Of a stretch of DNA of 64,000 nt, positions 1 through 49,549 are shown in pieces. Every line of letters starts with the position of its first letter. Position 1 is the first letter of the stretch. Under the pieces are notes generated by a model, which had not been told where the DNA came from, searched no databases, and was given only the letters and a program-made list of their open reading frames with translations. The DNA is taken from positions 248,001-312,000 of the forward strand of contig NW_020846801.1 in assembly GCF_003704095.1 (NCBI RefSeq), written 5' to 3'. The position numbers and the translations under genes are program-made. The DNA comes from Pocillopora damicornis (taxonomy: Eukaryota).

Positions 1-127
1 GCTATTATGGGGCGAAAACCAGGGGATCGCCGCGTACTGAGAGGAAGCATTTCGTGTTTGCAAATCTTCAAGAAAGCTTTGATTGGACCACAGATTCGAG
101 CACAGAAAAGGAAATGTTTCAGACGAA
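1..127 (+). CDS. C-terminal end of a LamG/ConA-like domain exon (giant protein)
   Basis: Translates AIMGRKPGDRRVLRGSISCLQIFKKALIGPQIRAQKRKCFRR then a|GTAAG; matches the ends of the following LamG repeats (GDxRxFxGxxxCLQxxxxAL...C). Confidence 0.8.
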
Positions 128-3100
128 GTAAGAGCTGCTTGCTTACTCTTTTTATATAAGACTAATTTAAGTCAAACAGAGACAGACAGATGAACAGGAA
201 GGGAAAGGAAAACAGACTAACTGACAAACGTACCTACAAACTTACAGACAAATGTGCTTAAAGAAAGATAAAAAGACAGACAGAAAGATCAGTGTATTAG
301 TTTTCTTACATTTTACAACGTAAATTATCTGATACTGAACTTTTGTTTTCTCTGTATTTTCTCTTCCAAGAACCAAATCCTAAAAGGCCCAAGCCGAAGC
401 CAGGTGGGTTGTTGCAATATATGTTTGTAAGTCTTAGGAGTGATATCAAAGAACTGCAAAGAGTCGACCACAAACATTTTGCGCCTAGTAAAGAAGGCTA
501 AGGTTAAAGAGTTGATGATGACTCATTGATGAGTTGATTCACTTACACGGTGGGATCCGAGATAAGTACGAGATCATTTATTAGCTTGAGGCCTGGCAAC
601 GATGACATAAACGAACCAAATGAACAGTTCCTAATTTCTGTTGCTCATACATGTGGTTTCTTTCCTTTATTATTTTGTCATTTGTTTTCAGTACGGCTTC
701 ATCCTCTTAGTTTGTACAAAAGCGCTTCATGGGATATTTTTTTGTCTTTATTCTGCAGCTCAGCCGATGCTCATGGGGCTCTATCCGTTTGATCCAATCA
801 GTAGAGGCCGAGACAGAAGCCCCAATAAAGCACCTAAAGCTTTGTTCAGCAACGTCGCTTTGACCAGTGGTCCCGATGGCCGCCCAAAATCTGCCGTTAA
901 ACTGCGTGGCCTCCCAAACAGCTACATTGAAATACCCAATAATGGAAAATTGCGCACGACCAATTCCATCTCCATGTTTGCCTGGGTCAAACCTACAGGG
1001 ACAGCAGGACCAATTATCAACTACGGCAGAGGACCCGCCTGGGAGACACACCTGTGGCAGACAGACCCCAAAACGCTCTTTGTTCGATATGTGAAGATAG
1101 GAGGTGCCCCCACTCCGGCCGTTACTAAGGCAGCGCTGACGCGAGGCGTTTGGAATTTCGTCGGTACAACTTACGATGGAACTTATGCCACACTTTGGGT
1201 GAATGGTAAAAAGGTCGCTTCGCGTAAAATCAACAGCATTCGTTTGTCAACAATTGGACCAATAAGGATCGGAGTGAAGAACGGCGATAAGCGTTACTTC
1301 AAAGGCGCCGTAGCTTGTGTGCAGCTCTATCGAGTTGCTTTACAGAAAAAACAGATACGGAGAGCCATGAAAAGATGTATGAGACGTGAGTATCTCAAAA
1401 ATGGAATTGGTTTATGTGTTCTAGGTATTTCAGATTTAGCGCTGAGAAATATTTCAGTAAGAGAGGAAACATATTAAACTTCACCTTTTGGTGAATAAGT
1501 CGACTTGCATTTAACTTAAACGGATATAACCATATGAGAGCAGTTTTCCCATAATTCTTCTGGCAAAGAAATCGGATAAAATCTTGCTTTAGTCAATTAA
1601 ATTATTGTTAGCATAAGCAGATATATTATGACATTCCTGGAGAAACATTTAAAGATCAGAGAAGCCATCACTTTCTTCCTATTCAAAAGGGCGCGGCCCA
1701 AACTGTAATTGAACTTGGTAATCGCGCGAATTTCATATAGTTCTTGCTGATAAAATAAATAGAGAGATAAATGTTTCACACTTGAGGCTCTATACTTTTA
1801 CGTTTAGCAAAGTTGACCATTGATAACTATTTATTTAGGACGCCCGTCTGTTCCCCGTACCACTCCACCCCCACCGCCACCAACTCAGGCACCAGCATGT
1901 AAGTACAAAGGATTACTAATCCTGATTTAACAAACATGAAGGAATAACTGAAGCAGCTCAGAACTAAAATCAAAATCTCTGTCGCGAAGCCTATACGGAG
2001 GAAGCATCCTACCTATGTCATTAAGGCCATGGTACATCTAGCTGAGCCCGGCTAGCTCAGTCGGTAGAGCATGAGACTCTTAATCTCAGGGTCGTGGGTT
2101 CGAGCCCCACGTTGGGCGTTGCATTTCTTTTTAGCAGAAATTATATCCAGATACTAATATAATGATCTATTAGATTACTTACAAGCAATTCAAGGCATAG
2201 GCATTTCGAAATGATACAACGAAACTTTGAACATAGGAGAAGATTAAAAACAGACTGAGATTTGTGTTTTGACATGTATTTCGCTAGAACCGTACTTTTG
2301 TAATGACCACATAAAAATAAACGCTATGTTTTAACATTTTATCATAGTTACCCCCAAACCAGTTGTCGTTTACCCACTTAACAAGCGGTACCGAGGAATG
2401 GAAAAGCTGGGTCGGAATCCTCCTGCAATATTAAGTGGGGTGCGGCTTGCACGCGGACCTGACAAACGACCCGGCGGCGCGTACCAGTTCACTGGTAAAC
2501 CCAACAGCTTTGTCAAGATCCCTAACAAGGGAAGAATGGACACCATGAAGGCTATAACGGTCCTTATATGGGTACTACCCAAAAACCGTATGGGCCCCAT
2601 TGTTCAGTTCGCCGACAAAGGATCAGCCGTAAGACTGTGGATGATGAGGAGAAACATGGTGTTTGCAGAGTTTGTGACCAGGCAGTCACGTGATACCAAA
2701 CCATATTTGGCAAGCGTTGATGGCGTATTACCTTGGAAATGGAATCACTTTGGAATGTCCTACGACAAGGCTACTGGTATAGCTACACTGTTTGTGAACA
2801 GTAAGCCAGTCGTGCGTAAAAAGATTGGTTATTTTGATCTATCAACCAATCACGATGTGTATCTGGGAGCGAGGCCAGGCGACAAGCACGCCTTCCGTGG
2901 TCGAGTGTCGTGTTTACAGTTTTTCGACAAAGCTCTTACAAGTCACCAGGTTAAGAAGATGGAGACGAAATGTCTCAGAGCACCTGGTAGGTTACCACGC
3001 CGGTGAAATAGTATACTTAAAACTCCATTCATCGATTACGCTTGGGATTTTGTCACCGCGACTCGACTATTTTAGACTTTCATTTAACATTTCATCAGTC

Positions 3101-47000: not shown

Positions 47001-49549
47001 ATCTCGGATAACCCTGGAGTTCATGAACCAGGGGAGCCAGAGTTTAGCTATGTGGGTGGCGTCCATGGTAATGAAGTAGTTGGTAAAGAGATGCTGATGA
47101 TGATGATTCAGCATCTGTGTTTGAGTTACGGTAAAGATGACTTGGTCACGCGATTGGTAAACAGCACTAGAATACATATCTTGCCTGCCCTGAACTCAGA
47201 TGGATACGAGCTGGCCTCCGAAGGAGACTGTTCATCGGACAAGGGAAGGAATAATGCTAGAGACGTGGATATCAACGCTGATTTTCCGGGTATGTTCTCG
47301 TCTTTGAATTCAAAATAATCTCATTAAGGAGCATTTGATGAATCGTTTCTTGTCCAAGGTGATGTTTTTGTATCGGACTCATTGAGCACTAATTCAAAAC
47401 AGTCAAATTTCCATAGATACCTCGTAGTATAAGCTTCGTAACAACCATTCCATCCTTTTATTTCCCAAGGTTAATTTTTAACTTTCATGGATGGTTACAT
47501 TACATTTCCTTTCAAATAATTAATAATAATAATCTCGAATTGGGCGCTAAATCAAAATGACACCATCTAACTGACCAGGTCCTTCATTCTCGTAACCTGT
47601 TTGCTGGATAAGATGTCGATGTTGTAGGGAGAAGTGAAATGTTAATCAGCCGAGGGGTTGATGTCCATCTGTACGTTTACCGGATCAATATCAGTATCTG
47701 GGCAACTGCCCACCTACCCCTCCCCTAACCTAACATTAACCCTAACTTGTTATCAATAGACTGTTGTTGGGTTAGGGGAGGGGTAGGTGGGCAGTTACCC
47801 AGATACTGATATTGATCCCGTTAACCTATGTACTGATACGTTTCGCTATTCCCATCACCAGTCCGCTGGATGATACACTAGTGTTGCAAGAAGAGATCGA
47901 GGTTAAAACACTTCTGGAAGTAGTAGGGTTGGTTCTTCTATACGTTTGTCCTTCACAGTATGCCGCTAATTTATGGAAGATGTCGCACACTAGAAACTCT
48001 CTTCTGCCTTTGGGCATCCAGTTCATCTTTTGGCGACTCCTGCCACGTATAGCACATTCAATTATTTTGCTGTTGTTGTGTTTTACAGAGTCTTCTGAGT
48101 CATCGCAAAAGGTTTTGGAGGCTGAAACAAACGCCATAGTAAAGTGGAGTAAGAAATATCCGTTTGTATTGGCGGCCAGTTTATATGGAGGTTCACTTGT
48201 TGCAAGCTATCCCTTTGATGCCCACCCTAAGGGTCGCTCACTTCCCCACCCTACCCCTGACGACGACGTCTTCCGTTACTTAGCAAGTACTTATGCTAAC
48301 TCACATCCATCGATGCATTATGGGAAGCCGTTATGTCCAGGCCCTTCGGTCGGGGAGGAGTTTCCTAAAGGTATCACAAATGGAGCAGCTTGGAAGAGCA
48401 AGGAAGGTGGCATGAAAGATTACATGTACCAAAGTTCCAACTGTTTTGAGATCGGAATACACATGGGCTGTTGTAAATTTCCCTACGCACAGGAGTTGGA
48501 GCATCATTGGAAAGAACACAAGGACCCTCTGTTCTTTTTTGTGTTTCAGGTAAGGAACATAACTCTTCGAAAATTAAACTTTGCTTTTCGCACCGTCTAC
48601 TTCATGCAGATGGGAGAACATGAGAACTTTAGTTCCTGAACTCTAATGAATACATCGCGACGCGAGCCACCCGCGCACACACGATGCGAGCCACTTAACC
48701 GTACCTAGTACTGTACCGTACCGTACCGTACCGTACCGTACCGTACCTCATTACAGACATGGCGAAGGTTCACCTTCACCGCGTCTCTCTTCCAGTATAC
48801 TCGAAGTATGGCTAGTCACCAATTATTTGGGGAACTTGAAAAAAGTTATGGAATAAGTATCTAGTTTGAAACGAGGATGCCTTCAGTCTTTTCTTCGTAA
48901 AGATCTGAGCAGAATTAACTCTCTCTCTATTTTGTGATACCTCTGACGATGAACTTAATTTAATATAAATCAGCTGTATTCTTTTCTGTTTTCTTTTTAT
49001 ATTCTTTGAGTGATGAGATGCTGTTTTCTTTTTGGGCAGGTTCATCGAGGTGTAAAAGGCTTCGTTTATGATGATGCAGGCTCCCCTATCTCTAACGCAG
49101 TAATCTCAGTAGAAGGCCGTGATCATGACGTCACAACTACCAAAGACGGCGATTTTTGGCGAATTCTTACTCCAGGGAAGTATAAAGTTTCCGCTTCAGC
49201 GCCAGAGCGGCAAAAAGTGACGTTGGACGTCCAAGTTCATCCAAATGAGCCTGCGTTACAAGTTAAGTTTACCCTGCCTCGACAACATTTAGTGTTTGGC
49301 CTACCAGCGGCTGTTATGGTGGGAATATGCGTCCTGGTGGCAGCAGTGTTCCTCCTATTTGTCATAGGACTGTGGCGTTTGGCGCGTTACAGAAAACAAC
49401 TCACCGTGCGGAGAAATGGATATTTGATGGATTTTGAACACGAACGATCGATAAATTCGTTTAATTCTAAGGCGTTACTGAACAATGAGTATTCAGATGA
49501 TACTGACGATGACGAAGAGGATATAGTTTTAGAGAATGTCAGACGATAA
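41035..49549 (+). CDS. CPD: Carboxypeptidase D (M14B), four CP domains + transmembrane helix + cytoplasmic tail, ~1,764 aa
   Basis: Exons 41035-43771, 44864-45330, 45764-45876, 46283-47289, 48089-48549, 49040-49549 (5295 nt, in frame). Signal peptide; [25 protein letters not shown] and GGMQD motifs; transthyretin-like domains (GxKGFV); TM segment; acidic tail [11 protein letters not shown]. Confidence 0.93.
44140..44348. mobile_element. TTAA-type MITE (CPD intron 1)
   Basis: ccctaagagtgac...cagtatggagaatatgcatactgatgttag...aagggtttaa; shared with the 12688 and 60524 copies. Confidence 0.65.
44434..44645. mobile_element. TTAA-bounded MITE with perfect 18-bp inverted ends
   Basis: ttaaccctttaactccca ... 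tgggagttaaagggttaa. Confidence 0.8.
47682..47818. mobile_element. 137-bp hairpin MITE with 8-bp target-site duplication (hAT-like), copy 1
   Basis: Long inverted arms ggatcaatatcagtatctggg.../...cccagatactgatattgatcc; flanks cgtttacc / cgttaacc. Confidence 0.8.
48713..48747. repeat. (GTACC)n microsatellite
   Basis: About 7 tandem gtacc units in a CPD intron. Confidence 0.9.

What the first reader, a model, noticed from the sequence alone, without database searches (positions are those of the whole stretch)
1..49549. Candidate co-located secretory system: polycationic scaffold + three lectin-headed proteins + carboxypeptidase D
Seen: five consecutive same-strand genes, all with secretory-pathway features: a cationic giant rich in dibasic sites with a GKKR motif, three signal-peptide RBL lectins with basic or mucin-like tails and polybasic sites, and CPD. 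Established: CPD removes C-terminal Lys/Arg left by furin/PC cleavage in the TGN, and SUEL/RBL domains occur in invertebrate immune lectins, adhesives and nematogalectins. Inference: a multi-component adhesive, mucus or defence locus (cationic cohesive protein, glycan-crosslinking lectins, processing enzyme). CPD adjacency could be chance, because it is a broadly expressed conserved gene.
Basis: inference. Interest (0 to 1): 0.7.

Follow-up and report, generated by a model that had tools for sequence, protein, structure and literature searches.

The report
Giant cationic coral protein beside lectins
A stony coral carries a predicted 6,200-residue secreted protein with an acidic front, a strongly basic body and a conserved predicted cleavage site, next to three duplicated lectin-like genes; together they likely build sticky or structural parts of its stinging-cell capsules, while the neighbouring processing enzyme is likely an ordinary bystander.

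Summary
The five genes are real, same-strand and secretory. It starts 18.8 kb before the window and reads as 6,216 aa: signal peptide, acidic block, vWA, (Gly-Gly-Pro)n, nine LamG, more vWA, seven WSC-fold repeats, Arg-rich block, GKKR, terminal LamG; net charge +848. RNA contigs support only its 3' part.

Its dibasic richness is a composition effect. The single GKKR, however, is kept in 6 of 6 orthologues, which fits convertase cleavage, carboxypeptidase trimming and amidation.

The three lectins are tandem paralogues with altered rhamnose-site residues. Gene 1-lectin linkage is conserved across corals and probably beyond them; CPD linkage was seen in Montipora only.

CPD is an ordinary four-domain enzyme that heads a block of housekeeping genes. 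A second giant of the same family has no lectin or CPD neighbour, and other M14 enzymes exist in the genome. A five-gene system is therefore not supported.

Best reading (0.45): the giant and the lectins are cnida structural or adhesive proteins, possibly spirocyst thread, and CPD is a bystander. Cell-type expression was not tested.

The parts
1..20961 (+). g1, in-window part of a predicted 6,216-aa secreted giant (60 exons). The 5' part lies at G000:C3436:229174-248000: signal peptide, acidic block, vWA, GGP block, vWA, first four LamG.
   Evidence: Hand model is open with one terminal stop; 59 AG acceptors, 58 GT and 1 GC donors. RNA contigs support the 3' part only.
759..6706 (+). Five of the nine tandem cationic LamG domains, one per exon
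   Evidence: PF13385 on 2 of 2 such exons scanned; the rest by similarity
7634..10147 (+). vWA domains 3 and 4
   Evidence: PF00092
11067..16986 (+). Seven two-cysteine Arg-rich repeats with a predicted WSC fold, separated by Pro-Arg linkers
   Evidence: Alignment; AlphaFold pLDDT 77; Wsc1 Z 8.8, rmsd 3.8, 83 aligned, and Kremen Z 8.3; PF01822 in the Stylophora orthologue
17976..19010 (+). Arg-rich, Pro-free block (31% Arg, 12% Lys, one acidic residue); no heptad signal
   Evidence: only match in the genome search (1 of 1 candidate)
19227..19238 (+). Conserved G-K-K-R: predicted convertase cleavage, carboxypeptidase trimming and amidation site
   Evidence: 6 of 6 orthologues that span the junction; GRKR before the homologous domain in Clytia
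19853..20687 (+). Terminal LamG of a different subfamily from the tandem ones; predicted to be released
   Evidence: PF13385; homologues
23266..25267 (+). g2: signal peptide, short pro-piece, two SUEL/RBL domains, basic tail (283 aa)
27344..29980 (+). g3: signal peptide, two SUEL/RBL domains, low-complexity tail ending in a conserved GxGN[ST]P motif (509 aa)
32126..39215 (+). g4: signal peptide, 60-nt exon at 32923-32982, two SUEL/RBL domains, 1,608-aa cysteine-free tail (1,863 aa)
41035..49549 (+). g5: carboxypeptidase D. Four CP domains (I and II keep the catalytic motifs, III and IV lose them), transmembrane segment, acidic cytosolic tail.
   Evidence: one 5,592-nt RNA contig spans all six exons
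50726..55770 (+). Sixth same-strand gene with a HIT zinc finger (INO80B-like; name recalled). Not secretory; relevant as a control.
   Evidence: PF04438; sequence

Best explanation
The locus holds a predicted giant secreted protein and three duplicated lectin-like genes that likely encode structural or adhesive parts of cnidae (most likely the sticky spirocyst thread), while carboxypeptidase D is likely a housekeeping neighbour that would act on the giant only in trans. Inferred mechanism: g1 enters the secretory pathway with an acidic front block that would neutralise or coacervate its polycationic body (net about +945 after residue 690) during storage. A proprotein convertase would cut at GKKR and release the terminal LamG. 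A B-type carboxypeptidase (CPD or one of its paralogues) would remove K-K-R, exposing Gly for amidation. The mature chain (flexible GGP block, vWA/LamG/WSC beads, Arg-rich end) would form a cationic fibre that sticks to anionic surfaces. g2-g4 would be nematogalectin-like partners acting as structural modules rather than classical rhamnose binders. Shown: gene anatomy, charge blocks, site conservation, linkage, 3' splicing. Inferred: cleavage, amidation, cell type, adhesion.
For: GKKR is in 6 of 6 orthologues while the flanks vary (V/A/A/A/T/R before, G/G/G/G/E/T after). The homologous LamG in Clytia (XP_066915184, XP_066919316) and in P0235 follows GRKR as a pro-LamG protein, so the module and its site predate corals. 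The lectin domains carry FWGR in 5 of 6 domains and YWGR in the sixth. All 4 of 4 collagen+RBL (nematogalectin-type, label recalled) genes on C940 also carry FWGR, against 0 of 10 other RBL domains recovered. g3-type proteins with the same C-terminal motif occur at 40-46% identity in unnamed marine contigs (6 of 11 end in GNTP) and in the anemone Actinostola, so the family is older than reef skeletons. For CPD as bystander: same length class as CPDs of other invertebrates; followed by zf-HIT, POLD4 and AIP genes; the paralogous giant on C3313 has no RBL or CPD hit in 120 kb; N/E-type M14 hits on 4 other contigs. Recalled, not tested: spirocyst contents are acidophilic adhesive microfibrils; Hydra nb012 is a nematocyte LamG protein.
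Against: No cell-type or tissue expression was obtained. The sister relation of g2-g4 to nematogalectins is weak (64/79), and nematogalectin-type domains were the best BLAST hit for only 2 of 10 queries. I did not show that the Clytia protein is an nb012 orthologue. P0237 has GDKRK rather than G-[KR]-K-R. The site in the paralogous giant lies in an N gap. The 5' three quarters of g1 has no RNA support here, and database models cover only the last 1,176-1,209 aa. No shared upstream motif links g1 to g2-g4. CPD does stay beside g2 in M. capricornis.
Confidence: 0.45

Rival explanations
1. g1 (with or without g2-g4) is a gland-cell or ECM adhesive: settlement or tissue-to-skeleton glue, mucus scaffold, or mesoglea fibre, working like the cationic cohesion protein of the flatworm adhesive.
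For: The acid block plus polycation, vWA/LamG/WSC domains and a Gly-Pro repeat suit a cohesive matrix. The Asp-rich block could bind calcium carbonate (inference). A Hydra adhesive organised by a lectin-like protein is in print (search listing).
Against: The terminal module and the g3 family have deep cnidarian homologues with pro-protein anatomy. The RBL motif is shared with nematogalectin-type genes. g1 transcripts occur in runs of 6 studies, which does not look like a brief larval event, although life stage was not shown.
Confidence: 0.25
2. g1, the lectin array and CPD are functionally unrelated neighbours kept together by ordinary slow genome rearrangement.
For: There are only three independent loci, and the same-strand chance for three is 1 in 4. 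The run continues into a nuclear gene. The paralogous giant lacks these neighbours. A motif sits before g2, g3 and g4 but not before g1 or CPD. High coral synteny is recalled; one search gave listings only.
Against: Both gene types have cnida-like traits.
Confidence: 0.18
3. One reading: a co-regulated five-gene secretory cluster in which the adjacent CPD is the dedicated maturase.
For: The conserved GKKR fits CPD chemistry. CPD domains I and II keep their catalytic motifs. M. capricornis CPD XP_068750609 follows g2 XP_068750607/8, and both occur on contigs of the same length in an ENA assembly. All five genes have contigs in 4 of 4 runs laid.
Against: CPD is the single four-domain copy found, it acts in trans, and it has a standard tail. 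Other M14 enzymes exist. The dibasic excess is absent in most regions. In M. foliosa the accessions are not consecutive, though on the same chromosome-length contig. Presence in bulk libraries is not co-expression.
Confidence: 0.12

Closest known systems
Nematogalectin (Gly-X-Y collagen + one SUEL domain; recalled; four such genes seen on C940)
   Same: Secreted SUEL/RBL domain with FWGR in place of the usual YGR.
   Different: g2-g4 have two SUEL domains, no collagen helix, lack the 'CE' glutamate that the C940 genes keep, and carry basic or long low-complexity tails.
Rhamnose-binding lectins SUL-I (5H4S) and CSL2/CSL3 (9VWI, 2ZX0)
   Same: Tandem SUEL fold; E 4e-30 to 1.5e-9; eight cysteines per domain and KYL kept.
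   Different: CE becomes CS/CT/CA/CD/CN and DPC becomes xHC/ENC. These residues are recalled as rhamnose contacts.
Macrostomum Mlig-ap1 cationic cohesion protein (recalled)
   Same: Very large secreted Lys/Arg-rich protein with adhesion-type domains.
   Different: No homology tested. g1 has LamG/vWA/WSC/GGP blocks, an acidic front and a cleavable terminal LamG.
Medusozoan pro-LamG proteins (Clytia XP_066915184/XP_066919316); Hydra nb012 recalled as a nematocyte LamG protein
   Same: Homologous terminal LamG (35-38% identity) preceded by G-R-K-R and, in Clytia, an acidic low-complexity region.
   Different: No cationic arrays. Orthology to nb012 was not tested.
Metazoan carboxypeptidase D (M14B)
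   Same: Four CP domains as in 1,600-1,800-aa invertebrate CPDs, transmembrane segment and acidic tail.
   Different: None of note.
WSC domain (Wsc1 7PZ2, Kremen 5FWS)
   Same: Predicted fold, Z 8.8 and 8.3.
   Different: Only two cysteines, extremely basic, seven tandem copies.

Membership tests
Carboxypeptidase D (M14B) | Multiple M14 + transthyretin-like domains, transmembrane segment, cytosolic tail | tested here: met
Carboxypeptidase D (M14B) | Zn ligands, NRN, catalytic Glu and specificity Asp in active domains | tested here: met
   Domains I and II keep HGxE, NRN, HGG, QD and ExxxE; III and IV lose them
Rhamnose-binding lectin (SUEL) | SUEL domain above the Pfam cut-off | tested here: met
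   103-117 bits vs cut-off 31.4, two stretches each in 3 of 3 genes
Rhamnose-binding lectin (SUEL) | Canonical CE, YGR and DPC motifs | tested here: not met
   the role of these residues is recalled
Rhamnose-binding lectin (SUEL) | Sugar binding | not testable with these tools
   Needs a glycan array
Nematogalectin | Gly-X-Y collagen domain before a single SUEL domain | tested here: not met
   g2-g4 have no collagen repeat and two SUEL domains
Nematogalectin | SUEL domain of the same clade | tested here: inconclusive
   Shared FWGR; tree support 64/79; best hit in 2 of 10 queries
Cnida structural proteins | Signal peptide and pro-region with a dibasic site | tested here: met
   g1 REKR at 74-77 and KR at 424; g2 KR at 27; signal peptides judged by eye
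Cnida structural proteins | Cnidocyte-specific expression or presence in capsules | not testable with these tools
   Only bulk contigs were available; atlas supplements could not be read
WSC domain | WSC fold | tested here: met
   Z 8.8, rmsd 3.8, 83 aligned; Foldseek E 2.5e-3, probability 1.00; no Pfam hit on 4 of 4 single repeats but PF01822 on the orthologue
Collagen | Gly-X-Y triple helix | tested here: inconclusive
   247 GGP triplets in runs of at most 14; AlphaFold pLDDT 49
Functional (co-regulated) gene cluster | Conserved linkage | tested here: met
   g1-g4 in several corals; CPD in Montipora only
Functional (co-regulated) gene cluster | Linkage stronger than that of unrelated flanking genes | not tested
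Functional (co-regulated) gene cluster | Shared regulation | tested here: inconclusive
   A post hoc motif lies before g2-g4 only

The most novel reading that the evidence does not exclude
g1 is the main protein of the spirocyst's sticky microfibrils: a self-neutralising block polyampholyte, stored with an acidic front and activated by cleavage and amidation at GKKR. It founds an undescribed family of 6,000-11,000-residue cationic LamG/vWA/WSC giants and is kept beside its nematogalectin-like partner lectins since before the scleractinian radiation.
Probability: 0.22. Interest if true: 0.8.

Novelty: new variant of a known kind. Interest (0 to 1): 0.5.

Why it matters
The molecular make-up of the adhesive spirocyst thread and of coral glues is, as I recall, largely unknown. 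This locus gives full-length candidates that databases hold only as unnamed fragments: a 6,216-aa protein and a paralogue that may reach about 11,000 aa. It also gives a sharp peptidomic prediction: an amidated C-terminus at residue 5950 and a free 26-29 kDa LamG fragment. If g1 is the thread protein, it is a new design for a storable underwater adhesive. The five-gene 'system with its own enzyme' is the weaker part of the finding.

Tried and rejected
- Homotrimer prediction of the terminal LamG (P0432 residues 58-286, three copies): no verdict, score 0.00, alignment not used; no evidence either way.
- AlphaFold on one GGP exon: pLDDT 49, uninformative.
- Coiled coil in the Arg block: no heptad periodicity (peak at 126 degrees), so I dropped the label.
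- Dibasic enrichment as a processing signal: rejected for most regions.
- A minus-strand collagen in the GGP block (its antisense reads GPP): rejected, because all 11 GGP-bearing exons have + strand AG/GT ends in one phase.
- Recalled POU4, octamer and RFX motifs: none in 900 bp before g1-g4.
- Contig depth as an expression measure: not used; the tool states that it cannot rank genes.
- CPD search: no named stony-coral representative among the 120 listed of 153; Montipora accessions came from cluster members.
- Metagenome loci: 0 of 52 reached CPD.
- Terminal LamG: no PDB sequence match.
- ESM Atlas gave leads under 0.9 only: WSC 0.89, SUEL 0.86.
- Earlier scan notes: nothing on this locus.
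- Literature: six accession or locus ids gave 0 papers. The other nine searches showed no title or abstract start describing this locus.
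Full report
SETTING. The window is G000:C3436:248001-312000. Homologues show a stony coral; the closest named one is Stylophora pistillata at 91% identity. I built gene models by hand from the sequence and checked them in scripts.

GENE 1. The ORF starts 18.8 kb upstream of the window. Sixty exons give 6,216 aa with one terminal stop; acceptors are all AG, and donors are GT except one GC. The order is: signal peptide; acidic block (aa 22-690, net -97); Cys motif; vWA; a 1,250-aa block of 247 GGP triplets in runs up to 14, with Lys/Thr/Pro spacers and no Asp or Glu; vWA; nine LamG; two vWA; seven short basic repeats; a Pro-free Arg-rich block; GKKR; a terminal LamG. 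Net charge is +848. The short repeats are predicted to have the WSC fold (pLDDT 77; Wsc1 Z 8.8, rmsd 3.8, 83 aligned). RNA-run contigs join the last WSC exons, the Arg block, the GKKR exon, the terminal LamG and the stop exon in single pieces in 2 of 4 runs. Database models cover only the last 1,176-1,209 aa and are named hypothetical or uncharacterised.

PROCESSING SITES. The many dibasic pairs are what composition gives, and they are depleted in the WSC and Arg blocks. One site is different. GKKR sits at the charge boundary in 6 of 6 orthologues that span it, with variable flanks. The homologous LamG in Clytia and in one unnamed protein follows GRKR; another unnamed protein has GDKRK. From established prohormone biochemistry, G-K-K-R is cut by a convertase, trimmed by a B-type carboxypeptidase and amidated at Gly.

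GENES 2-4. Each has two SUEL domains and the same exon plan (signal exon, 57-60-nt exon, double-domain exon). The small g4 exon was revealed by RNA joints. They are 40-53% identical over the domains and form three old clades, so they are tandem paralogues. Against SUL-I and CSL3, the CE and DPC motifs are replaced; I recall these as rhamnose contacts, so classical binding is doubtful. Five of six domains carry FWGR and the sixth YWGR. So do 4 of 4 collagen+RBL genes on C940, against 0 of 10 other RBL domains recovered; 5 of 15 other loci gave no domain to my pattern and were dropped. The tree joins g2-g4 with those genes only weakly (64/79), and they were the best BLAST hit in 2 of 10 queries. 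g3 ends in GNSP. Six of 11 distant (40-46%) unnamed marine sequences end in GNTP; their taxa were not determined.

GENE 5. A standard four-domain CPD. One 5,592-nt contig spans all six exons. Domains I and II keep the catalytic motifs, III and IV do not, and its length matches other invertebrate CPDs. Other N/E-type M14 hits lie on four further contigs. Downstream come a same-strand zf-HIT gene, then POLD4 and AIP.

LINKAGE. g1-g2: fused model in Porites lobata; contig L019 holds g1, g2 and g3. g2-g3: fused models in Orbicella and Acropora digitifera, consecutive accessions in A. muricata, and L017, L018, L020. g3-g4: L040. CPD: M. capricornis XP_068750609 follows g2 XP_068750607/8, and an ENA contig length of 1,251,066 is shared; in M. 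foliosa the accessions are far apart but on a contig of the same length. I could not run the control with unrelated flanking genes.

A PARALOGUE. C3313 (about 156-240 kb, minus strand) holds a related array with the same first vWA and terminal LamG (56%): 27 LamG, 29 vWA hits (some are split exons) and 3 WSC hits. There is no GGP, Arg-block, RBL or CPD hit in 120 kb. Gaps leave open whether it is one gene, and the junction before its terminal LamG is in a gap. The family therefore does not need these neighbours.

EXPRESSION AND REGULATION. The Arg exon is held by 18 of 24 listed runs from 6 studies. All five genes have contigs in 4 of 4 runs laid, g1 and g4 only as fragments in some. This shows presence, not co-expression. 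A post hoc motif (3 of 7 hits in 124 kb) lies within 365 bp upstream of g2, g3 and g4 and is conserved for g2 and g4, but is absent before g1 and CPD. Paralogy may explain it.

MECHANISM AND RIVALS. I commit to a cnida role at 0.45. The reasons are pro-protein anatomy, a deep cnidarian terminal module, nematogalectin-like lectin motifs, and a polycationic body that matches the recalled acidophilic, sticky spirocyst contents. A gland or ECM adhesive gets 0.25, unrelated neighbours 0.18, and the five-gene system with a dedicated CPD 0.12.

LITERATURE SEEN. Passages of PMC11509761 (a hydrozoan nematocyst extract lists CPD-like, furin-like and SUEL/CSL3-like proteins). Search listings only for PMC2687796, PMC6134521, PMC5363355, PMC12549020, PMC6214176 and the HvAb1 preprint. 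Mlig-ap1, nematogalectin, nb012 function and spirocyst staining are recalled. Six accession ids gave no paper.

VERDICT. The interesting object is the undescribed giant family with its conserved cleavage site and its old linkage to the lectin array. The CPD adjacency is most likely ordinary synteny. Interest 0.5; new variant of a known kind.

Noticed in passing
G000:C3313:156400-240500 (minus; loci L007-L009, L013-L016, L069-L071): Paralogous cationic LamG/vWA/WSC array, possibly one gene of about 11,000 aa, with N gaps and a small inverted patch near 204.8-207.4 kb
   Followed up: partly
G000:C3313:138000-152500 (plus; L010, L007): Gene with a long acidic low-complexity exon and several thrombospondin-1-like repeats (label by eye), tail to tail with the paralogous giant
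   Followed up: no
L002:6656-L001:3679 (upstream of the window): The GGP codon repeat reads as perfect collagen GPP on the opposite strand; genome pattern hits outside g1 that I inspected are collagen-type repeats on the other strand
   Followed up: partly
window 2046-2118 and 3274-3348: Two tRNA-Lys(CTT) genes inside introns of the Lys/Arg-rich g1
   Followed up: no
window 29954-29980: g3 C-terminal motif G-x-G-N-[S/T/Q]-P-stop, kept in an anemone and in distant unnamed homologues; role unknown
   Followed up: partly
window 22901, 27291, 31912: TCATAAAT(A/T)(A/T)T motif just upstream of each lectin gene; conserved CRE-like sites at 26544 and 31760
   Followed up: partly
window 17461-17487 and 19853/19856: 27-nt g1 exon with a GC donor; two RNA contigs differ by 3 nt, consistent with a NAGNAG acceptor before the terminal LamG
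   Followed up: partly
G000:C940:19400-55800 (L073-L076): Cluster of four collagen+RBL (nematogalectin-type) genes; C2024 holds several minicollagen-like genes (labels recalled)
   Followed up: partly
window 50726-61719: zf-HIT gene (+), DNA polymerase delta subunit 4 (-) and AIP-like gene (-) follow CPD
   Followed up: partly
window 12700-12900, 44150-44650, 47680-47830: Very high-copy interspersed repeats in introns; the last has an inverted-repeat look
   Followed up: no
L003-L005 (upstream): Transporter (PF00083), C-type lectin membrane gene, sphingomyelinase-like gene (by eye) and DEP-domain gene precede g1
   Followed up: no
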